Source: Candidatus Binatia bacterium
Lineage (GTDB): Bacteria > Desulfobacterota > Binatia > UBA9968 > JAJDTQ01
Assembly (NCBI GenBank): GCA_963666515.2
Contig: OY762897.2
Location: 2,976,001-3,040,000 of the forward strand
Direction: 5' to 3'
DNA length: 64,000 nt
Position numbers and translations under genes: made by a program. The notes beneath the pieces are model-generated. The model was given only the letters and a program-made list of their open reading frames with translations. It made no database searches and was not told where the DNA came from. Positions 271 to 15,340 of this stretch are shown piece by piece (the stretch's first letter is position 1; each line of letters starts with the position of its first letter).

Positions 271-439
271 CTATAGCCAGACCGTCTCGCGCCTGTCAAC
301 CACAAAAACGCAATATTTCCCGCCGCGAAAACGGCGCGAATCTGCCAGGAAACCTGAAGTTTTACCTACATCTGGGTGTATTCGAGGCCCAGGGAGGGCT
401 TGTGCTACAAGATATGGGAGCGGGCGGTGGGATGGGGGC

Positions 440-812
440 CAGTGGATCGTTAAGCCGGATTCTGTAACGCTTCCCAACAGGAAGCGGGACGGTCATTCAT
501 CTTGCCCCGCGATTGCTCGCGGGGTCCAGCGACCTTACCCGAGGGTGTCAGGCGGACGACCCAACCCTCCTATTTGGTCTTGCTCCGGGTGGGGTTTACC
601 ATGCGCCCGCCATCACTGGCGGACCGGTGAGCTCTTACCTCGCCTTTTCAACCTTGCCTGACGGCCCGGCGTGACCGGAACGCGTCGGGCGGTATGTTTT
701 CTGTGGCACTTTCCCCCGATCGCCCGGGGCCGCCGTTAGCGGCCACCCTGTCCTTTGGAGTCCGGACTTTCCTCCTCCGCGTCGACCGCGGAAGCGACCG
801 TCTGATCCACTG
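440..812 (-). ncRNA. rnpB: RNase P RNA
   Basis: Minus strand has GAGGAAAGTCCGG near the 5' end and ACAGAATCCGGCTTA near the 3' end. P1 helix is CAGTGGATC/GATCCACTG (804-812 with 440-448). Confidence 0.96.
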
Positions 813-880
813 TGCCCCTGGACACAGTTTCCCGGTTGCGGGGCGCGGTTGCAACCCCTGGAGACGGTAGACTTCGTATG

Positions 881-8466: not shown

Positions 8467-10239
8467 GTGTCCATGACCCACACCGCCGACCCCATCACCG
8501 TCCAGGTCATCCGCGCCGCCCTCGACGGCATCGTGCAGGAGATGCAGACCTCGCTCTTCCGCACGGGCTTCTCCACCATCATCCGGGAATCCCACGACGC
8601 CAGTTGCGCGATCCTGAACACCAACGCCGAAGTCATCGCCCAGCACGTCGTGCTGCCGCTCCACATGGGCGCCTTCCCGGCCTGTACCGAGGGGTTGCTC
8701 GAACGGTTTTCGCCGGACGAGCTGCGGGAAGGCGACGCCTACATCGTCAACCACCCCTACCGCGGCGGCAGCCCACACGCCCCGGACATGGGCGTGCTGA
8801 CACCTGTCTTCTACCAGAGCGAATGGGTGGGCTTCTGCGCCAGCATGGCCCACAAGAGCGACATCGGCGGCACCGTGCCCGGCAGCGGCTCGGGTACTGC
8901 CAGGGAGATATTCCAGGAAGGGCTCCACCTGCCGGCGGTGAAGTTCATGGATGCGGGCCGGCCCGTGCGCGAGTTGGAGTGGTTCATCCATGCCAACAGC
9001 CGCACACCGGAGGTGGTGGTGGGCGACATCCGCGGCCAGGTGGGCGCCAACCGGCTGGGCGAGAGGCGGCTGGCCGAGCTGCTGGACAAGTACGGCAAGG
9101 ACACGGTGGTGGCCTCCACCGAGGAGCTGGCCGGACACGCCGAGCGCCGCCTGCGCCAGGTCATCGCCTCATGGCCCGACGGCCGTTACCAGGGCGAGGC
9201 CTGTGTCGACAACGACGGCATCGACCTCGACAAGCCCGTGCGCATCCGCGTCACCGTGGAAAAGACCGGCGACCGCATCCTGTTCGACTTCTCGGAATGC
9301 AGCCCCCAGACCACCGGCCCGGCCAACATCCGCCCTCCCCTGGTGCGGGCCTGCTGCTACTACTGCCTCATCGCCCTCATCGACCCGTTCCTGCCCATCA
9401 ACCAGGGGCTGGCGCGGGTGGTGGAAACCCGATTCCGCCAGGGCAGCGTCGTCTGCCCCGACTTTCCCGCCGCGGTGAACGCCTACATGCCCACCGCGCT
9501 GGTGGTGGCCGAGGCCGTCCTACAGGCCATGAGCACCCTGGTGCCCGACAAGACCATCGCCGAGGGCTCCGGCAGCGGCGCCATCGCCCTGGGCGGCCGC
9601 GCCCGCGACGGCAAGCGCAGCTACGTCCAGTACGAGATCTTCGCCGGCGGCGTCGGCGGCCGGAACGGCAAGGACGGCGCCTCTGCCACCTCCTTCCACC
9701 TGAGCAACGGCAAGATCGCCCCCGTCGAGATCATCGAGTCCGAGTTCCCCACCCAAGTGGAGCGCTTCGAGCTGCTGCCCGACTCCGGCGGTCCCGGCCG
9801 CCACCGAGGCGGCCTCGGCTTTGTCCGCGAGTACCGCATCCTCCAGGACGAGGTCCGCTTCTCCATGCGCACCGACAAGCACGCCCTCGCCCCCCAGGGC
9901 ATCGACGGCGGCCACCCCGGCGGCACCGGCGGCTGCATCATCAACCCCGGCGCCGACGACGAGCGCAGCATGCCGTCCCGCTTCGGCGACCAGCGGTTGA
10001 AGACCGGCGACGTGCTACGAGTGGAGCGGCCGGGTGGCGGGGGCGTGGGAGCGGCGTTCCGGCGAAATCCGGAGGCCGTGCTGGACGACGTGCGGCAGGG
10101 GTATGTTTCCGTCGAGAGGGCACAGAGTGACTACGGCGTCATGATCCGTGTCGATGGCAGGGAGTTCGCCGCGGATTCGGACGCGACTAAAAAGTTGCGA
10201 GCACGTGGGCGGGACACTCCAATCGACACCCAGGGGTAA
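8467..10239 (+). CDS. Hydantoinase B/oxoprolinase subunit, paralog 2
   Basis: Same motif set as paralog 1 and colinear with it over its full length. Confidence 0.92.
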   Translation: MSMTHTADPITVQVIRAALDGIVQEMQTSLFRTGFSTIIRESHDASCAILNTNAEVIAQHVVLPLHMGAFPACTEGLLERFSPDELREGDAYIVNHPYRGGSPHAPDMGVLTPVFYQSEWVGFCASMAHKSDIGGTVPGSGSGTAREIFQEGLHLPAVKFMDAGRPVRELEWFIHANSRTPEVVVGDIRGQVGANRLGERRLAELLDKYGKDTVVASTEELAGHAERRLRQVIASWPDGRYQGEACVDNDGIDLDKPVRIRVTVEKTGDRILFDFSECSPQTTGPANIRPPLVRACCYYCLIALIDPFLPINQGLARVVETRFRQGSVVCPDFPAAVNAYMPTALVVAEAVLQAMSTLVPDKTIAEGSGSGAIALGGRARDGKRSYVQYEIFAGGVGGRNGKDGASATSFHLSNGKIAPVEIIESEFPTQVERFELLPDSGGPGRHRGGLGFVREYRILQDEVRFSMRTDKHALAPQGIDGGHPGGTGGCIINPGADDERSMPSRFGDQRLKTGDVLRVERPGGGGVGAAFRRNPEAVLDDVRQGYVSVERAQSDYGVMIRVDGREFAADSDATKKLRARGRDTPIDTQG

Positions 10240-10327
10240 CGTCAAGTCACTCTGCGCCAAGCGGGGAGTCAAGATGACCGACGCCATACGCGAACTGCTG
10301 GAGGACAAATTTGGCGAAGCGGAGTGA
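10238..10327 (+). pseudogene. 3' remnant of a ribbon-helix-helix (ParG-like) protein gene
   Basis: Frame reads NVKSLCAKRGVKMTDAIRELLEDKFGEAE*, like helices A and B of ParG-type RHH proteins. No 5' half; the stop overlaps the MTase start. Confidence 0.55.
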
Positions 10328-11099
10328 CATTCGTCGCGGACAACCTGAGTTGTCGTTTGACGCTGCCGAGCCGGCCGGGTCAGCCGCCGCCCATCCTCCA
10401 GAATCCGAGAAGCGAACGAAGCGCGTCGTTCGGAACGGGGCAGCGACAAATGCACTGGTCTTAAGCGCCTATGAAGAAGGGAACGACCAGATATTTCCAC
10501 GTATTCTCGCGTTGTATGTAAAGCCGGGCAGTATCGTCGCCGACGTAACCCACGGCAAAGGAGTCTTCTGGCGAAACATTCCGCCTGACCTGTACGACCT
10601 TCGTGCAACTGACATTCAGGACGGTGTTGACTGCCGGAGCCTTCCCTATGCCGATGGGACCATCGACTGTGTCGTCCTGGATCCTCCCTATATGCATACC
10701 CCGGGAGGAACCGCCCATCAGTCTCACTCGCCATTCGAGAGCTACTACGCCAACAACCGGTGCAAGGCACCCAGCAAAGCGAAATACCACGACGCCGTAC
10801 TGGAACTCTATCGGGAAGCCGCTCGCGAAGCCTACCGGGTGCTGCGTAAGCGAGGCGTCTTCATCGTGAAGTGCCAGGACGAAGTCTGCGCCAACCGGCA
10901 ACGCTTCACGCATGTCGAGATAATGGAAATGTGCCGCGGCATGAAATTCGTGGCTGAAGACCTGTTCGTCGCGGTTCGGAACAACCGTCCCGGCGTCAGC
11001 CGCGTCGTCAAGCAAGTCCACGCGCGCAAGAACCACTCCTATTTCCTCGTATTCTGGAAAAGCAACGGACGAGATCGTTTGTGGGAGCCACCGAGCTGA
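10311..11099 (+). CDS. Orphan amino (m6A/m4C) DNA methyltransferase, small phage/plasmid type
   Basis: SAM motif VADVTHGKG, catalytic VVLDPPY, and YRVLRKRGVFIVKCQD. Confidence 0.8.
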   Translation: MAKRSDIRRGQPELSFDAAEPAGSAAAHPPESEKRTKRVVRNGAATNALVLSAYEEGNDQIFPRILALYVKPGSIVADVTHGKGVFWRNIPPDLYDLRATDIQDGVDCRSLPYADGTIDCVVLDPPYMHTPGGTAHQSHSPFESYYANNRCKAPSKAKYHDAVLELYREAAREAYRVLRKRGVFIVKCQDEVCANRQRFTHVEIMEMCRGMKFVAEDLFVAVRNNRPGVSRVVKQVHARKNHSYFLVFWKSNGRDRLWEPPS

Positions 11100-11235
11100 A
11101 TCCCATCGACCTGATGGTGGCCGTGATTAGGGATCACCTCCCCGGAGTCGATCTGGAGAGGCTCACCACTGGAGGATACTGCCACGTCGGGAAAGCGGGC
11201 GGCCTGCCCTGGAGAGAGACCGCCCGCAAAGGAGT

Positions 11236-11580
11236 TTATGTTGCTGACGTCGCATTACCGCGATCAAGCAATGCAAGGATGCTGCCCAGCACTGCCAAGG
11301 CCATGAAGATGGCAACGAGTGTGCCACCAACGACCGCCGTAATGACCGACACTACCAACAGCAGGATGCTCGCCAGCTTGCCCTTGGCGGCGATTGTGGC
11401 CGCGCCCAACGCAATGACCAGGAACGAGCAGAAGACGCCAGCCCAGCCAAGGCCGACGACGGTATCCGCGCCTTCGGCTTCGAATGCCCCGCCGACGCCG
11501 CCGATGAACAGCGTGACGAAGGCCGCCATTACGGCCATCACGCCCGCCACGATACCGATGATTCCTCCAGCCTTTTTCAT
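11236..11580 (-). CDS. Small 3-4 TM membrane protein (DUF4064-like)
   Basis: 114 aa, almost entirely hydrophobic Gly/Ala-rich helices; RBS GAGGTG. Confidence 0.7.
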   Translation of the reverse strand: MKKAGGIIGIVAGVMAVMAAFVTLFIGGVGGAFEAEGADTVVGLGWAGVFCSFLVIALGAATIAAKGKLASILLLVVSVITAVVGGTLVAIFMALAVLGSILALLDRGNATSAT

Positions 11581-11584
11581 GACG

Positions 11585-11893
11585 TCACCTCGGCCGGATG
11601 CTGTACTTGATCTTCAAGTTCGCGTATGTGGGAACATCCATCGCCACGGCCTGAAGGGCATGCCCCTCGATGAACCCATTGGCGACGCCCAGGAACTTGT
11701 CCCCATCGTACAGTCGAATCGTGGCGCTGCCCTTGTCGCACGTAGCGCTGCCGTCGATGGAAACACCCATCGAGGACGCCGACGCCCGCCACGCCTCCAG
11801 ATCGCACTTGCCCACGTGATCATCGCAGGCTAGGGCCGTAGCGACACCAAGGAGCACCGTCGCAAGGACGACGGTGAGACAACCTGCTCTCAT
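11585..11893 (-). CDS. Small secreted beta-rich protein (FxLYD-like)
   Basis: Signal peptide ending ALA, motif TIRLYDGDKFLGVA, strong RBS GAGGAGGTG. Confidence 0.7.
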   Translation of the reverse strand: MRAGCLTVVLATVLLGVATALACDDHVGKCDLEAWRASASSMGVSIDGSATCDKGSATIRLYDGDKFLGVANGFIEGHALQAVAMDVPTYANLKIKYSIRPR

Positions 11894-11945
11894 TCTTCAC
11901 CTCCTCGCAGTTGGGGGCCATGTCCCGGCGGGATTGCCGGGCCAT

Positions 11946-12068
11946 GTGACCACTGCAACGGAGTTGAAGCGTTCCGCGTATTCGCCGGGCTTGGGGAGCG
12001 ACCCCTTGCCGGGTACAGGCTCTTGTATTCAGCGGATGACCCGACACGGGACTCCGCACAGTGGTCAC
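11946..12068 (-). ncRNA. Candidate structured 5' leader RNA (family not identified)
   Basis: Nested helices: GTGACCACTG/CAGTGGTCAC, CGGAGT/ACTCCG, TCCGC/GCGGA, plus three internal hairpins. G-U pairs favour the minus strand. Confidence 0.55.
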
Positions 12069-12075
12069 GGGTGAG

Positions 12076-12105
12076 ACGCTAGGACAGATGTTGGCGGGTT
12101 GTCAA
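12076..12105 (-). promoter_or_regulatory. Predicted sigma70 promoter
   Basis: TTGACA (12105-12100), 18-nt spacer, TAGCGT (12081-12076); predicted +1 near 12069. Confidence 0.55.
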
Positions 12106-12570
12106 GTACCCAAATGGAGGGAGGGAATCGGGACGAAGCACCCCGACAGCAAGACGCCAAAGACGCTGGAAAGATACTACAGAGACGGACCCGATGAAGG
12201 CCGTGGACGACTTGCTGGAGCGAGTGCTGGCGGGAGCGGGAGTTAGGAAGCCGGATGTTTCCCCGGAACCTCAAGAGACCTGAAACAGAAGGTCGCCGAC
12301 GACCATTTCACTGACGCGCCACAGCGCTTGAATCTGCCCGTCCATCAGAAGATCGCACTTCTGCGACCCCTGATTCCAGCGGGCCCTACCCCGAAGTTCA
12401 GGCTTTCCTTGCGGCGCACGAAAATCACAGTCTCCGTGCAACAAGCAGTAACCACATCGCGGATGGCATTGAGGAAAGTCGACCTGGAAGGCCAGTACAA
12501 GCCAGCAGCCGTCAGCGTCAGGTGAATAACTATCTGTGCACTGGACCCGTCAACGTTTCGCCGTTCCACC

Positions 12571-12948
12571 TCACTTCTTCGTTCCAGCACCCTCTTCCAG
12601 CTGCTTCCTTAGTTTCTCCAGTTGCGTGCTCGTCCTCGCGTGCAAGGCTTGTATACAATTCACCTGTTTCCCCACATTTCTCGCCTCGCCTCCGCATTCT
12701 GACACTTCAGCCCAACTAGTCGAAGGCAGCTCTCCACGCTGTCGTTCAATAGCTGTTCTTTTCGCAACCTCCCTCTTCAGTTCTCTTTGAACTTCCTCTA
12801 GCCGTCGCTGCAAGTCTTCATTCTCACCCCTCAGCGTCGCCAGCGAACCCACCATATTGATGATTACGATAACCAAAACGATCATTGTCGCAAAAACCGC
12901 TGTGCGACTCCCCAACTTGTCGAGCCATGCCTTAATCGCCACTCTCAT
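12571..12948 (-). CDS. Hypothetical single-TM coiled-coil protein
   Basis: N-terminal TM helix, heptad-like segment and a Cys pair; overlaps the upstream gene. Confidence 0.6.
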   Translation of the reverse strand: MRVAIKAWLDKLGSRTAVFATMIVLVIVIINMVGSLATLRGENEDLQRRLEEVQRELKREVAKRTAIERQRGELPSTSWAEVSECGGEARNVGKQVNCIQALHARTSTQLEKLRKQLEEGAGTKK

Positions 12949-13690
12949 CGCCGAACACCTTTCTGAGTTCCCGCCCCAGGATCTCGTCTGCGGTTCGTCC
13001 TTGCGTTATCGTATAATAGCTCGATAGAAACGACGCTAACCCCAAGAAAATTACGTACAGCGCTCTCGTTGACGCTGCCTCGCCATCCTCCATCGGTGTT
13101 GGCCCGTGACCGGCCGTCAGCAGAAAGTACGACACGAAATCTAAAATCAAAGACGCTGTAACTAGTACTGGCCATCGACTCTTCGGCGCGTGTTCTTGGA
13201 GAAAAAAAGATAATTCCATACCAATCATTAACAAAATCAACGCTCTGGTGGCGGCAAAGGACAACTCATAACGAACCGCCACGGTCTCCGCCTCGGGTGC
13301 TGTAATCACCTGTGCAGATAGCACCAATAGTATCGACGCCGCCGGCAGAATCCACTTGGCGAAACTCCTAGGCACTGAGTCCATAGTCGAGTAGTATTGA
13401 CTGTAAACTTCTTCGTAGTCACTCTCTAATTGCTGCTTATACGAATATGATTTGACCAAAATCACGCCGTAAAAAACGATCAGGACAGCAGTCGTACTAT
13501 ATATTGCTTCGGCTTTAGTACCAAGGCCCAAAACAAGAAGGACATCGGAGAAAAAAGAGAGGTACACCACAAGACCGATGACGCATAAAACCAAGAAACC
13601 GGCGGCCGCAGAACTCGCAGTGTCTGTTTCGGTGGCCTCAACTTCATCAACTACGTCAGCACTTTCGTCTGTCAATTTTTCCTCAGGCAT
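12932..13690 (-). CDS. Hypothetical multi-TM membrane protein
   Basis: 252-aa ORF in visibly AT-richer DNA, about 6 hydrophobic segments, acidic N-terminus. Confidence 0.7.
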   Translation of the reverse strand: MPEEKLTDESADVVDEVEATETDTASSAAAGFLVLCVIGLVVYLSFFSDVLLVLGLGTKAEAIYSTTAVLIVFYGVILVKSYSYKQQLESDYEEVYSQYYSTMDSVPRSFAKWILPAASILLVLSAQVITAPEAETVAVRYELSFAATRALILLMIGMELSFFLQEHAPKSRWPVLVTASLILDFVSYFLLTAGHGPTPMEDGEAASTRALYVIFLGLASFLSSYYTITQGRTADEILGRELRKVFGDESGD

Positions 13691-13885
13691 CGGACACCCA
13701 CTTCATGATCTTGTTGCCATACAAAATGGCCGTAGACTACGGTTGAAACTAACACGCGGCTTAACGTATCACATCGTCCGAATGGGGGCGCAACCTTTAG
13801 TTCGGAGGGGTTGAGAGAGGGGATAAGCGCGTTAATCACGAGTTTTGGCAGAAGAACCAATCATCGGCATCGTGATGCTCGGCCC

Positions 13886-15313
13886 TCACCGCCTACTCAC
13901 CGCCTCGAACAAATGCAACTGCGGCGTCTTCCCGTTGTCGTCCGCCCGCACGGGGTAGTTGGCGGTGAAGCAGGCGTCGCAGTAGCCGGTGTCGTCGCCC
14001 TTGAAGAAGGCGTAGAGGCCCTGGCGGCTGAGGTAGGCGAGGGAGTCGGCGCCGATGAAGGCCTGGATGCCTTCGACGGAGTGGACGGAGGCGATGAGTT
14101 CCTTGTGGGTGGGGGTGTCGATGCCGTAGTAGCAGGGGCTGATGGTGGGAGGGGAGCTGATGCGGACGTGGACTTCGGTGGCCCCGGCCTCCCGCAGCAT
14201 GCGGATGATCTTCTGGCTGGTGGTGCCGCGTACGATGGAGTCGTCCACCACCACCACGCGCTTGCCCTGGAGCACCTCGCGCATGGCGTTGAGCTTGATC
14301 TTGACGCCGAAGTTGCGGATGTGCTGCTGCGGCTCGATGAAGGTGCGGCCGACGTAGTGGTTGCGGATCAGGGCGAGGTCGAGGGGGATGCCCGACTGTT
14401 CGGCGTAGCCGATGGCGGCGGGCACGCCCGAGTCGGGCACCGGGGTCACCAGGTCGGCGTCCACGTGGCTTTCGCGGGCAAGCTGGCGGCCCAGTTCCTT
14501 GCGGTACTGGTAGACGCTGTGGCCGAAGACGTTGCTGTCGGGCCGGGAAAAGTAGATGGACTCGAAGATGCACCGGGCGGGCGGAGTCTCCGGGAAGGGT
14601 CTGAGGGACTCCATGCCCTCCCGGCCGAAGACCAGCACCTCGCCGGGCTCCACCTCGCGCACGTACTCGGCCTCGATCAGGTCCAGCACGCAGGTTTCCG
14701 ACGCCACCACGTAGGACTGGGAGTTGCCGGATCGGGGGAACCGGCCCAGGATCAGCGGCCGGAAACCCGCGGGGTCGCGGGCGGCGATCATCGTGCCGGC
14801 GGTGAGGAATACGAGCGAGTAGGAGCCCTTGACCTGGTGGAGAGCGTCGATGACCCGGTCCGTCAGGGTCTTTTCCCGCGAGGTGGCGATGAGGTGGATG
14901 ATCACCTCGGTGTCGGAGGTGGACTGGAAGATGGAACCGGACTCCTCCAGTTGCTCCCGGAGCTGGTTGGCGTTGATCAGGTTGCCGTTGTGAGACACGG
15001 CGATGGGGCCGTCCGCGTACTCCACCACGAACGGCTGGGCGTTCTTGATGTCGGTTTGCCCGCTGGTGGAATAGCGGTTGTGCCCGATGGCCGAGGTTCC
15101 CTGCAGGTTCTTGATGATGTCCTCTTTGAAGATGTCGGCCACCAGACCCATCTGGCGGTGCGAGATGAGCGCGCCGCCGTCGGACGACACGATGCCCGAG
15201 GACTCCTGGCCGCGGTGCTGCAGCGCGTAGAGCCCCAAGTACACCATGTTGGCGGCTTCCCGGTGGCCATAGACTCCGACCACCGCGCATTCTTCGTGGA
15301 ACTTGTCGAACAT
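13886..15313 (-). CDS. purF: Amidophosphoribosyltransferase
   Basis: EECAVVG, LQHRGQES, GHNRYST, VDDSIVRGTT and CDACF. Confidence 0.97.
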   Translation of the reverse strand: MFDKFHEECAVVGVYGHREAANMVYLGLYALQHRGQESSGIVSSDGGALISHRQMGLVADIFKEDIIKNLQGTSAIGHNRYSTSGQTDIKNAQPFVVEYADGPIAVSHNGNLINANQLREQLEESGSIFQSTSDTEVIIHLIATSREKTLTDRVIDALHQVKGSYSLVFLTAGTMIAARDPAGFRPLILGRFPRSGNSQSYVVASETCVLDLIEAEYVREVEPGEVLVFGREGMESLRPFPETPPARCIFESIYFSRPDSNVFGHSVYQYRKELGRQLARESHVDADLVTPVPDSGVPAAIGYAEQSGIPLDLALIRNHYVGRTFIEPQQHIRNFGVKIKLNAMREVLQGKRVVVVDDSIVRGTTSQKIIRMLREAGATEVHVRISSPPTISPCYYGIDTPTHKELIASVHSVEGIQAFIGADSLAYLSRQGLYAFFKGDDTGYCDACFTANYPVRADDNGKTPQLHLFEAVSRR

Positions 15314-15340
15314 GACGTCCCTGCTACGCAACAAACCCGT

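What the first reader, a model, noticed from the sequence alone, without database searches (positions are those of the whole stretch)
11946..12105. Unannotated multi-stem RNA starting at a predicted TSS, leading two small envelope genes: candidate new riboswitch or leader
Seen in sequence (minus strand): a TTGACA-18-TAGCGT promoter puts +1 near 12069, next to the first base of a long closing helix (GTGACCACTG-TG-CGGAGT pairing with ACTCCG-TTG-CAGTGGTCAC). The interruptions become G-U pairs only on this strand. The helix encloses hairpin CCCG-TGT-CGGG and helix TCCGC/GCGGA. That inner helix encloses TGAA, hairpin TACA-6-TGTA, stem CCGG..GGGG-TCGCT-CCCC..CCGG and CGAATAC, and GAATAC occurs twice. 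Another hairpin (CCCGGC-6-GCCGGG) and a strong RBS follow before the 11893 start. Inference: nested multiway junctions in a 5' UTR fit a ligand-sensing or protein-binding RNA. The UGAAU...GUA...CGAA...AACUCCGU order loosely recalls the 3' half of the ydaO (c-di-AMP) aptamer, but I cannot match it to a family I know.
Basis: partly seen in the sequence, partly recalled or inferred. Interest (0 to 1): 0.75.

Follow-up and report, generated by a model that had tools for sequence, protein, structure and literature searches.

The report
Enlarged sRNA-Xcc1-type leader RNA
A real, strongly conserved folded RNA sits at the start of the messages of many envelope-protein genes in uncultured Binatia bacteria, and it turns out to be an enlarged, probably switchable relative of a poorly understood RNA family called sRNA-Xcc1.

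Summary
The genome holds 6 copies. Related Binatia genomes hold 1-19 copies each. On 70 distinct copies, 91.8% of pair cells form pairs, against 34-43% in slid controls, and 39 of 45 pairs show double changes. A TTGACA-N17/18-TAnnnT promoter lies at a fixed distance in 36 of 70 copies.

The next gene has a hydrophobic N-terminus in 38 of 65 cases and a lipobox in 26 of 65. The genome background is 13.5% and 3.8%.

No Rfam family reaches its threshold, and ydaO gives no match. The RNA is not wholly new, though. Its invariant core is that of sRNA-Xcc1 (RF02221). The core is GUCGGG, a helix, the internal loop AAUACAAnA/GAAUA, and a distal CCCGGC. Intermediate forms in Vicinamibacterales and a Novosphingobium MAG match both models.

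In the enlarged form each strand of the Xcc1 closing helix also has a local partner, P2 or P5. This suggests a two-state cis switch. The effector and the output are unknown, and I found no expression data.

The parts
12100..12105 (-). -35 hexamer TTGACA
   Evidence: Sequence. At least 5 of 6 TTGACA with N16-19 and TAnnnT in 36 of 70 distinct copies, at a fixed distance from P1. Flanks aligned by eye.
12076..12081 (-). -10 hexamer TAGCGT; predicted transcription start about 12069-12070
   Evidence: Sequence. TAGCGT is the commonest -10 among copies (9 of 36). The hexamer ends at model position -2 in 24 of 36. The start site is inferred, not measured.
12051..12068 (-). P1 5' strand (GTGACCACTGTGCGGAGT)
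   Evidence: Pairs with 11946-11964. All 16 P1 pairs of helices 1 and 3 have double changes among 70 copies, with 90.9% and 97.7% of cells paired.
12040..12050 (-). P2 hairpin CCCG-TGT-CGGG. Its 3' arm plus flanks, GUCGGGUC (12045-12038), is nearly invariant.
   Evidence: 94.2% of cells paired. There are few double changes (CG to GC in 1 copy, GC to AU in 2).
12032..12036 (-). P3 5' strand TCCGC
   Evidence: Pairs with 11973-11977. 98% of cells paired. UA 36 / CG 32 at the first pair and CG 39 / UA 19 / UG 10 at the third.
12021..12031 (-). 5' side of the invariant internal loop (U-GAAUACAAGA)
   Evidence: A74, A75, U76, A77 and A80 are invariant in 48 of 48 rows, and A79 in 46 of 48. The same letters occur in sRNA-Xcc1 members.
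11984..12020 (-). P3b (GCC / GGC) enclosing a 7-nt bulge and P4 (GGC-AA-GGGG-UCGCU-CCCC-AA-GCC)
   Evidence: P3b first pair is AU 23 / GC 21 / GU 21 / UA 2, and the third is CG 63 / UA 7. P4 pairs have double changes. P4 is shortened in some copies, such as L074, L075 and L088.
11978..11983 (-). 3' side of the internal loop (GAAUAC)
   Evidence: A154 and A155 are invariant, U156 46 of 48, A157 47 of 48.
11973..11977 (-). P3 3' strand GCGGA
   Evidence: See P3 5' strand.
11946..11964 (-). P1 3' strand (ACTCCGTTGCAGTGGTCAC), preceded by the variable joiner 11965-11972
11921..11944 (-). P5 hairpin. The 5' arm GGCCCGGC (11943-11936) is nearly invariant and complementary to GUCGGGUC of P2.
   Evidence: P5 has 89% of cells paired. 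Variation is almost all on the 3' arm (GU 21, GU 10, mismatches). All 8 long-range pairs are possible in 60 of 70 copies.
11900..11906 (-). Shine-Dalgarno GAGGAGG
   Evidence: Sequence.
11585..11893 (-). Gene 1: 102-aa protein with signal peptide and lipobox-like ...ATALAC; no Pfam family
11236..11580 (-). Gene 2: 114-aa hydrophobic (multi-span) protein; no Pfam family

Best explanation
Window 11915-12075 (minus strand) encodes the 5' leader of the mRNA for two small envelope proteins. It is about 150-165 nt long and is transcribed from its own sigma70-type promoter.

It is one of 6 paralogous leaders in this genome. It belongs to a lineage-restricted, multi-copy RNA class found in three Binatia families. 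A shorter-P4 form occurs in some Vicinamibacterales and in one Novosphingobium MAG. The class precedes genes for lipoproteins and other exported proteins.

Its conserved core is the core of the sRNA-Xcc1 family (RF02221). The core runs GUCGGG, then P3, then the asymmetric internal loop GAAUACAAnA/GAAUA, then P3b, then a distal CCCGGC.

The enlarged form adds three things:
- a long 5'/3' clamp (P1);
- a local partner for the 5' strand of the Xcc1 closing helix (P2);
- a local partner for its 3' strand (P5).

I infer a cis-acting two-state switch. State A has P2 and P5 hairpins and is the thermodynamic default. State B has the Xcc1-type long-range helix GUCGGGUC/GGCCCGGC. State B would be stabilised when an unidentified effector (small molecule or protein) binds the invariant internal loop. 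That would free the P5 3' arm just upstream of the ribosome-binding region and change translation or transcript fate.

Shown: the RNA structure, its family, its copy number, its promoter position and its gene association. Inferred: the transcription start, the switch, the effector and the output.
For: Structure:
- 70 distinct copies give 91.8% paired cells, against 33.6-42.9% when partners are slid.
- 567 doubly changed cells, against 49-97 in the slid controls.
- 39 of 45 pairs have double changes, and 0 of 500 shuffles reach the observed values (the 47-sequence set agrees).
- In an all-against-all column scan, the 16 best covarying pairs are all pairs of this model.
- Many G-U pairs fix the strand.

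Copies and spread:
- 6 copies in G000.
- 26 of 61 relatives have a match: genus 22 of 27, sister family 3 of 5, third family 0 of 28.
- Class sample: 23 of 151, i.e. f1 6 of 8, f2 2 of 2, f6 14 of 18, and 0 of 122 in 16 other families.
- Phylum sample: 2 of 151.

Promoter: 36 of 70 copies have one at a fixed distance.

Leader role:
- A same-strand ORF starts within 330 nt in 65 of 70 copies, often 15-30 nt after the model end. That leaves no room for a second promoter.
- 38 of 65 have a hydrophobic N-terminus and 26 of 65 a lipobox, against 488 and 136 of 3614 genome ORFs run through the same script.
- Pfam on 45 of these 65 finds only envelope-type families.

Kinship to RF02221:
- The window scores 17.1 bits, with the Xcc1 closing helix laid on GUCGGGUC/GGCCCGGC and hairpin 1 on P3-loop-P3b.
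- The motif scan found at least 115 loci. 9 of 18 tested reach RF02221's gathering score.
- My Binatia model hits L161 at 63.3 bits, L154 at 49.9, L123 at 34.7 and the bona fide RF02221 member L175 at 29.0.
- RF02221 scores the enlarged forms at 47.1, 36.8, 32.1, 27.9 and 23.5 bits, always with the same register.

Switch:
- GUCGGGYC and GGCCCGGC are nearly invariant, while their local partners vary.
- 97.5% of the long-range cells pair, against 19-52% when slid.
- In the Vicinamibacterales set the terminal pair is GC 9 / AU 5 / GU 1 with no A-C.
- Energies: P2 is -4.3 and P5 -14.0, against -12.9 kcal/mol for the long-range duplex.
Against: - No transcript data. No RNA run holds the locus, so the start site, the 3' end and co-transcription are inferred.
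- Within Binatia the long-range helix shows no covariation. 92 of 500 shuffles reach the observed percentage paired and 63 of 500 reach the covariation score. Support comes from 5 related Vicinamibacterales sequences and from homology.
- P5 itself shows compensatory changes (GGUCCGGC/GCCGGAUC in L078), so it is a real hairpin and not only a decoy.
- No conserved expression platform. The minimum-energy fold pairs 3 or more of the 10 Shine-Dalgarno-region bases with the domain in only 13 of 42 leaders.
- No U-tract follows P5.
- The gap from model end to start codon ranges from 15 to about 250 nt.
- P1 is a very stable 17-18 bp helix, unlike the marginal P1 of most riboswitches.
- RF02221's gathering score is not met (17.1 against 53 bits; no match at E<=10 genome-wide).
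- Canonical sRNA-Xcc1 loci precede different genes (Bro-N and other antirepressor types), so no shared physiological logic is evident.
- Copies are paralogues and orthologues, so counts overstate independence.
Confidence: 0.55

Rival explanations
1. A constitutive 5' structural module. The clamp-closed domain at the very 5' end protects abundant envelope-protein mRNAs from 5'-end-dependent decay, or sets their translation level, without sensing anything.
For: P1 starts a few nucleotides after the predicted start and is long and stable. No conserved Shine-Dalgarno-sequestering or terminator platform was found. The linker to the start codon is variable. The promoter is near consensus at -35.
Against: A mere stabiliser needs no invariant internal loop kept letter for letter from Proteobacteria to Binatia. 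It also needs no two invariant, mutually complementary strands that each have a second partner.
Confidence: 0.2
2. An independent trans-acting small RNA, as published for sRNA-Xcc1. It would end at P5 and act on other mRNAs by base pairing, and the downstream gene would be incidental.
For: sRNA-Xcc1 accumulates as a discrete RNA of about 88-100 nt in Xanthomonas (PMC2996969, passages). It is multi-copy and transcribed in Xylella (PMC12189769, passages). P5 is a strong GC hairpin. Some copies have no convincing ORF behind them (5 of 70), and some stand in tandem or divergent clusters.
Against: In many copies the start codon lies 15-30 nt after the element, so the gene must be read from the element's promoter. 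The strong bias to exported-protein genes is a cis signature. No U-tract follows P5. The conserved single-stranded letters lie in a structured loop. A search for the complement of the loop found only 7 exact sites outside the three copies that carry that exact loop sequence, about the number expected by chance.
Confidence: 0.12
3. A self-cleaving or otherwise processed RNA (a ribozyme-like element) that happens to lie in leaders.
For: Multi-copy, scattered gene contexts, tandem clusters and invariant junction letters with freely covarying stems are also the habit of small self-cleaving ribozymes. That comparison is from my own knowledge.
Against: No match to any ribozyme family in Rfam. A promoter at a fixed distance explains the 5' end without cleavage. 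Nothing here tests catalysis.
Confidence: 0.05
4. A DNA-level repeat (a miniature inverted-repeat element or recombination site) and not an RNA.
For: Long imperfect inverted repeat, several copies per genome, and a window copy inside a low-GC islet next to a DNA methylase gene.
Against: Copies differ wholesale in P1 sequence while keeping pairing. Many pairs are G-U, which are A-C on the other strand. Orientation relative to a promoter and to the next gene is fixed. No target duplications or identical copies within G000 (73-76% identity).
Confidence: 0.02

Closest known systems
sRNA-Xcc1 (Rfam RF02221)
   Same: Same invariant core in the same order. GUCGGG directly 5' of a 5-6 bp helix, the internal loop (U/G)AAUACAAnA opposite GAAUA, a CCC/GGG-type helix, and a distal CCCGRC that pairs with GUCGGG. 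Both are multi-copy in some genomes and promoter-proximal. Intermediates score with both models.
   Different: The window copy scores 17.1 bits against the 53-bit threshold. It is about twice as long. Xcc1 hairpin 2 is replaced by the 3' strand of a long clamp, P1. P2 and P5 give each closing-helix strand a local partner. The GNRA-type tip of hairpin 1 is replaced by P4. The downstream genes are exported proteins here. In canonical loci they are Bro-N, P22_AR_N, Rha, ORF6N, KilA-N, AntA and HTH genes, or symE in Xanthomonas integrons (bioRxiv 10.1101/2025.06.18.660453, passages).
Multi-copy second-messenger riboswitches such as c-di-GMP-I (GEMM-I)
   Same: It works like these in habit only. 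There are several to many copies per genome in 5' leaders of genes for surface, secreted and envelope proteins. This comparison is from my own knowledge.
   Different: No sequence or structure match. RF01051 found nothing in G000, but its control genomes also stayed silent, so that search says nothing. No ligand was tested.
ydaO (c-di-AMP) riboswitch, RF00379
   Different: No match at E<=10 in a 701-nt scan. The architecture differs, and the GAAUA repeats form one internal loop rather than two pseudo-symmetric halves.
5' UTR stabilisers of envelope-protein mRNAs (for example the E. coli ompA leader)
   Same: A structured domain at the extreme 5' end of mRNAs for abundant envelope proteins. This comparison is from my own knowledge.
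   Different: Those leaders are gene-specific and lack a loop conserved across phyla. Here one module serves dozens of unrelated genes.

Membership tests
sRNA-Xcc1 (RF02221) | Score at or above Rfam's gathering threshold (53 bits) | tested here: not met
   17.1 bits, E 4.7 in a 701-nt scan. No match at E<=10 in the whole genome. Two other Binatia copies gave no match at E<=10 in a 1174-nt scan.
sRNA-Xcc1 (RF02221) | Hairpin 1 with the internal loop AAUACAAnA opposite GAAUA | tested here: met
   The loop letters are invariant or nearly so in 48 rows and identical to those in confirmed RF02221 members.
sRNA-Xcc1 (RF02221) | Closing helix GNCGGG.. with ..CCCGNC around the whole RNA | tested here: inconclusive
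   The complementary strands GUCGGGYC and GGCCCGGC are present, with 8 of 8 pairs in 60 of 70 copies. There is no covariation in Binatia. GC/AU covariation occurs at one pair in 15 sequences of the enlarged form. In this RNA both strands also have local partners (P2, P5).
sRNA-Xcc1 (RF02221) | Hairpin 2 between hairpin 1 and the closing helix; total length about 87 nt | tested here: not met
   That segment is the joiner plus the P1 3' strand. The element is about 150-165 nt.
sRNA-Xcc1 (RF02221) | Chain of intermediates linking it to confirmed members | tested here: met
   R2 scores L161 at 63.3, L154 at 49.9, L123 at 34.7 and L175 at 29.0 bits. L175 reaches RF02221's threshold at 55.1 bits. 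RF02221 scores the enlarged forms at 47.1 to 23.5 bits.
ydaO / c-di-AMP riboswitch (RF00379) | Match to the family covariance model | tested here: not met
   Absent from the gathering scan and from the E<=10 scan.
Riboswitch (generic) | Conserved, covarying aptamer-like fold in a 5' leader | tested here: met
Riboswitch (generic) | Expression platform with mutually exclusive pairings tied to a terminator or ribosome-binding site | tested here: inconclusive
   Mutually exclusive P2+P5 against the long-range helix is plausible. No consistent link to the Shine-Dalgarno sequence, and no U-tract.
Riboswitch (generic) | Direct, specific binding of a small molecule | not testable with these tools
   Needs in-line probing, ITC or similar.
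Intrinsic terminator (for P5) | GC-rich hairpin followed by a U-run | tested here: not met
   P5 is followed by ACAUGGCCCCCAACUG in the window, and by similar U-poor tails in other copies. The terminator scan did not list it.

The most novel reading that the evidence does not exclude
The invariant GAAUACAAnA/GAAUA loop is an aptamer for a small molecule, for instance a nucleotide second messenger or an envelope-related metabolite. The enlarged Binatia and Vicinamibacterales form would then be a new riboswitch class commanding a regulon of dozens of surface lipoprotein and secreted-protein genes. By extension, the whole sRNA-Xcc1 family, so far treated as trans-acting sRNAs, would be cis-acting sensors in front of prophage antirepressor and symE genes.
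Probability: 0.2. Interest if true: 0.85.

Novelty: new variant of a known kind. Interest (0 to 1): 0.62.

Why it matters
It adds a large, strongly covariation-supported leader RNA to uncultured phyla (Binatia, Acidobacteriota) where hardly any RNA regulation is described. It defines a candidate regulon of envelope proteins in these organisms.

It also ties this RNA to sRNA-Xcc1. That RNA is known from plant pathogens and prophages, and its mechanism is unknown. The enlarged form supplies each strand of the Xcc1 closing helix with a competitor. This is a natural hint that the closing helix is the regulated element, and it gives a concrete, testable model for the whole superfamily.

My searches for 'Binatia' with 'riboswitch' gave 0 papers. 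'Binatota' with 'noncoding RNA' gave 1 unrelated paper, judged from its listing only. The three sRNA-Xcc1 papers I read in passages (of 24 found) treat it as a trans-acting sRNA or only note that it lies upstream of symE.

Tried and rejected
- ydaO and any known riboswitch: rejected by Rfam scans.
- RNAalifold's alternative inner fold (CCGUGUGU with AUACGCGG, and CGGGU with ACCCG): rejected. The changes seen in P3 (CCUGC/GCAGG, UCUGC/GCAGA, CCCGU/ACGGG) and in L005 break it while keeping P3.
- Extra pseudoknots: an all-against-all covariation scan found none beyond the model.
- P4 loop GUAGCUCC as an anti-Shine-Dalgarno or pseudoknot strand: dropped, because some copies lack the loop.
- Shine-Dalgarno sequestration by the domain: not consistent.
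- A trans partner complementary to the loop: 10 exact sites of the 10-mer in the genome. 3 are copies of the element, and 7 is about what chance would give.
- CsrA binding to the CAACGG repeats of the long linkers: no CsrA gene found in G000, which is 98% complete. The control genomes did ring.
- Conserved structure in the long linkers: none predicted.
- c-di-GMP-I in G000: no match, but the controls were silent, so this is uninformative.
- RF02221 over 20 whole loci: nothing listed, because at that search size a 17-bit match exceeds E 10.
- Expression: no RNA holder is listed for the locus. The 4 holders are contig-only runs of one study.
- Supplements of papers were not seen. The target lists and alignments of the sRNA-Xcc1 papers may bear on the trans-acting claim. 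Chen et al. 2011 (RNA Biol 8:947) was not read; I know it only from citations.

Rows dropped:
- For Pfam I gave 45 of the 65 downstream ORFs. I left out short or doubtful automatic calls.
- I gave 53 of the 74 ORFs behind the Xcc1-type motif. I left out 52-aa doubtful ORFs, near-duplicate Pseudomonas proteins and loci with long-gap chance matches.
- The automatic ORF picks include some wrong frames (for example L031, L034, L088, L094), so 38 of 65 is a floor.
Full report
WHAT IS THERE

On the minus strand of the window the following features lie in order:
- TTGACA (12105-12100), 18 nt, TAGCGT (12081-12076).
- A long helix P1 (12068-12051 with 11964-11946).
- Inside P1, hairpin P2 (CCCG-UGU-CGGG, 12050-12040) and helix P3 (UCCGC 12036-12032 with GCGGA 11977-11973).
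- P3 closes an asymmetric internal loop. The 5' side is U-GAAUACAAGA (12031-12021) and the 3' side is GAAUAC (11983-11978).
- A 3-bp helix P3b follows (GCC 12020-12018 with GGC 11986-11984), then a 7-nt bulge and hairpin P4 (12010-11988).
- After P1 comes hairpin P5 (11944-11921), then GAGGAGG (11906-11900) and ATG at 11893.
- That ATG opens a 102-aa protein with a signal peptide and a lipobox-like ...ALAC. A 114-aa hydrophobic protein follows at 11580-11236. Neither has a Pfam family.

The single-sequence fold is better than shuffles (z -3.09; 2 of 200 shuffles fold as well). Two exceptions apply. The TACA-6-TGTA hairpin is not conserved. The 'CCGG..CCGG' stem is better read as P3b plus P4.

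IT IS A FAMILY

- A BLAST of the region against the window's own genome found four more copies at 73-76% identity.
- A covariance model built from the five (R1) found a sixth.
- R1 found matches in 26 of 61 related genomes: own genus 22 of 27, a sister family 3 of 5, a third family of the order 0 of 28. One genome has 19 matches.
- A refined model (R2) found it in 23 of 151 genomes sampled from the class. These were families f1 6 of 8, f2 2 of 2 and f6 14 of 18, with 0 of 122 in sixteen other families.
- In a sample of the phylum it was found in 2 of 151 genomes, namely the window's own and one other of the same class.
- Record titles of matching public contigs name mostly 'Candidatus Binatia' MAGs. 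A few carry other submitter labels. Of the 30 pattern loci, 29 were confirmed by the model, and the Saprospiraceae contig L065 was not.

THE STRUCTURE IS SUPPORTED BY COVARIATION

On 70 distinct sequences aligned to R2:
- 91.8% of pair cells form standard pairs, against 33.6-42.9% when the 3' partners are slid by 1-3 columns.
- 567 cells carry changes on both sides, against 49-97 in the slid controls.
- 39 of 45 pairs show at least one double change.
- No shuffle out of 500 reaches any observed measure.

P1 changes wholesale between copies. P3 alternates UA/CG, CG/UA and CG/UG. The first pair of P3b is AU 23, GC 21, GU 21, UA 2.

The alignment was fitted to the model, which favours it. An independent all-against-all column scan still ranks model pairs in its first 16 places. 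The earlier 47-sequence set gives the same picture. Frequent G-U pairs fix the transcribed strand as the minus strand.

RNAalifold's different inner fold is contradicted by the P3 covariation and by copy L005.

PROMOTER AND LEADER ROLE

In 36 of 70 distinct copies a 5-of-6 or better TTGACA, a 16-19-nt spacer (17 or 18 in 34 of them) and TAnnnT lie just upstream. The -10 hexamer ends at the same model position in 24 of those 36. The RNA therefore most likely starts 1-5 nt before P1. The generic promoter scan missed the window's site because TAGCGT matches TATAAT at only 3 positions.

A same-strand ORF with a Shine-Dalgarno-like sequence starts within 330 nt in 65 of 70 copies, often only 15-30 nt after the element. 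In those cases the gene can only be read from the element's promoter.

The encoded proteins are unrelated to one another but share a destination:
- 38 of 65 have a hydrophobic N-terminal run of 10 or more residues, and 26 of 65 have a lipobox.
- The same script gives 488 of 3614 (13.5%) and 136 of 3614 (3.8%) for ORFs of the whole genome.
- The copies are not independent, so the binomial p-values printed there overstate the case.
- Pfam on 45 of the 65 finds TbpB_B_D (2) and single cases of Peptidase_S8, OMP_b-brl, YecR, Surface_Ag_2, Peptidase_M8, Peptidase_M10, Dockerin_1, GT87 and others.

NOT IN RFAM, BUT NOT AN ORPHAN

- The only gathering-level Rfam match in the window is RNase P RNA at 435-813.
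- A permissive scan of 11700-12400 gave no ydaO match. Its only structured match was sRNA-Xcc1 (RF02221) at 17.1 bits, E 4.7.
- That weak alignment was informative. It lays the closing helix of sRNA-Xcc1 on GUCGGGUC (the P2 3' arm) and GGCCCGGC (the P5 5' arm). It lays hairpin 1, with its AAUACAA/GAAUA loop, on P3-loop-P3b.
- A scan of public genomes for the loop motif taken from the Rfam consensus returned at least 115 loci. They come from Pseudomonas, Xanthomonas, Haemophilus, Neisseria, Azospirillum, Desulfovibrio, Acidobacteriota and others.
- Their sequences read GUCGGGAG-(helix)-AAUACAAnA-CCC-GNRA-GGG-GAAUA-(helix)-hairpin 2-CUCCCGAC.
- 9 of 18 tested reach RF02221's gathering score.

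The link then runs through intermediates:
- R2 hits four of the 80 loci significantly: L161 at 63.3 bits, L154 at 49.9, L123 at 34.7 and L175 at 29.0.
- L175 is itself a threshold-passing RF02221 member at 55.1 bits.
- L161, L123 (Vicinamibacterales MAGs) and L154 (a Novosphingobium MAG) have the enlarged architecture with P1, and in L161 and L123 also P5.
- RF02221 scores such enlarged forms at 47.1, 36.8, 32.1, 27.9 and 23.5 bits, always in the same register.
- The genome of L161 holds 9 copies and that of L123 holds 3.
- 5 of 101 genomes sampled from that order have a match to the Binatia-trained model.
- These copies too have a promoter at the same distance. Reading by eye the 17 full-length copies outside the window shown, I count about 10 that are followed by proteins with signal peptides, lipoboxes or membrane anchors.

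The window's RNA is thus an enlarged, divergent member of an sRNA-Xcc1 superfamily. It fails the family's formal threshold.

WHAT IS KNOWN OF sRNA-Xcc1

I read passages only:
- It is an 88-nt RNA, seen as a band of about 100 nt on Northern blots, in Xanthomonas campestris (PMC2996969).
- It lies upstream of symE in a widespread integron cassette (bioRxiv 10.1101/2025.06.18.660453).
- It has seven transcribed copies in Xylella fastidiosa, five of them in a row (PMC12189769).
- It is treated as a trans-acting sRNA, and no mechanism is shown.

In my sample of canonical loci, a same-strand ORF follows in 74 of 80. Of 53 ORFs scanned, 16 carry Bro-N, 5 P22_AR_N, 5 Phage_pRha, 3 ORF6N, 2 KilA-N and 1 AntA, and several carry HTH domains. 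These are prophage antirepressor-type regulators. So the canonical form is also promoter-proximal and sits in front of genes.

HOW IT MAY WORK

Compared with the canonical form, the enlarged RNA differs in three ways:
- It replaces hairpin 2 by the 3' strand of a long clamp, P1, whose 5' strand is the very start of the transcript.
- It places CCCG upstream of GUCGGG, giving P2.
- It places GCCGGG downstream of GGCCCGGC, giving P5.

Each strand of the ancestral closing helix therefore has a local competitor. The two shared strands are nearly invariant (67-70 of 70 at most positions), while their local partners vary. The partners change C to U, giving G-U pairs, and show mismatches. That pattern is expected of strands with two partners.

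Evidence on the long-range helix:
- All 8 pairs are possible in 60 of 70 copies. 97.5% of cells pair, against 19-52% when slid.
- Because both strands hardly vary in Binatia, covariation is absent there.
- In the 15 sequences of the Vicinamibacterales set, which includes the window, the terminal pair is GC 9, AU 5, GU 1 and never A-C.
- P5 is also a true hairpin, with compensatory changes in L078, L026 and L030.

Nearest-neighbour energies for the window are -4.3 kcal/mol (P2) and -14.0 (P5), against -12.9 for the bare long-range duplex. P2+P5 should therefore be the default state.

I infer a bistable leader. An effector bound at the invariant loop would favour the Xcc1-type fold. That would open P5 and free the stretch just 5' of the ribosome-binding region. 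In Vicinamibacterales copies the Shine-Dalgarno sequence follows P5 within 0-5 nt.

This is inference. There is no consistent predicted Shine-Dalgarno sequestration (13 of 42). There is no U-tract after P5. The linker is variable. No transcript data exist.

Other explanations remain open, in falling order of likelihood: a constitutive stabiliser, a discrete trans-acting sRNA, and a processed or self-cleaving RNA. A DNA repeat is very unlikely.

VERDICT

- It is wrong on ydaO and on the claim that the RNA has no relatives.
- Novelty: a new, enlarged variant of a known but functionally obscure RNA family. It has a new host range, a new gene association and an architecture that suggests how the family works.

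Noticed in passing
window 435-813 (-): Bacterial RNase P RNA class A, 292.8 bits, full length.
   Followed up: no
window about 10200-13800: Low-GC islet (0.45-0.62 against about 0.69 in the flanks) between a Hydantoinase_B gene (8467-10239) and purF-like 13886-15334. It holds an N6_N4 DNA methylase gene (10311-11099, +), the leader with its two genes, and two further Pfam-less genes (12571-12948 and 12932-13690, -). It looks like acquired DNA.
   Followed up: partly
L009, L012, L040, L024, L031, L071, L034, L060, L027 (between P5 and the start codon): A 'long form' of the leader carries about 70 nt with repeated GCAACGG / CAACGG and CACCGGGA motifs and a conserved GGAGGUGUUCCAUG. No conserved structure is predicted, and no CsrA gene is present in G000. 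Its role is unknown.
   Followed up: partly
L070 / L092 (G027:C1:4242903-4243442); L230 (G339:C1 about 3465372-3466311): Copies occur as a divergent pair about 200 nt apart. In one Vicinamibacterales genome there is a cluster of two full copies, each followed about 130 nt downstream by a 'core-only' copy (P2 3' arm to P3), ahead of a signal-peptide gene. This recalls tandem riboswitches and the five-in-a-row sRNA-Xcc1 copies of Xylella.
   Followed up: partly
L105-L184 (public genomes): Canonical sRNA-Xcc1 RNAs sit upstream of prophage antirepressor-type genes: Bro-N in 16 of 53, P22_AR_N 5, Rha 5, ORF6N 3, KilA-N 2, AntA 1. None of the three sRNA-Xcc1 papers I read in passages (of 24 found) mentions this association.
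   Followed up: partly
L018 (G002:C1:948460-948627 and downstream): The gene behind this copy resembles the lipoprotein gene behind L039. It has ATT in place of ATG and appears to be one base short early in the frame. It may be a pseudogene or a sequencing error.
   Followed up: no
G020: 19 matches in one 5.9-Mb genome, several with identical scores (128.7 bits three times, 138.7 twice). This suggests recent duplications of leader-plus-gene units.
   Followed up: no
window 12291-12304 (-): Terminator-like hairpin GGTCGTCGGCGACC followed by TTCTGTTT, about 185 nt upstream of the -35 hexamer. It is a plausible end of the upstream operon, which would leave the leader with its own promoter.
   Followed up: no
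L024:2059-2148 (+): Sub-threshold match to skipping-rope RNA (24 bits against a gathering score of 36.7, E 0.35) near one Binatia copy. It is probably chance.
   Followed up: no
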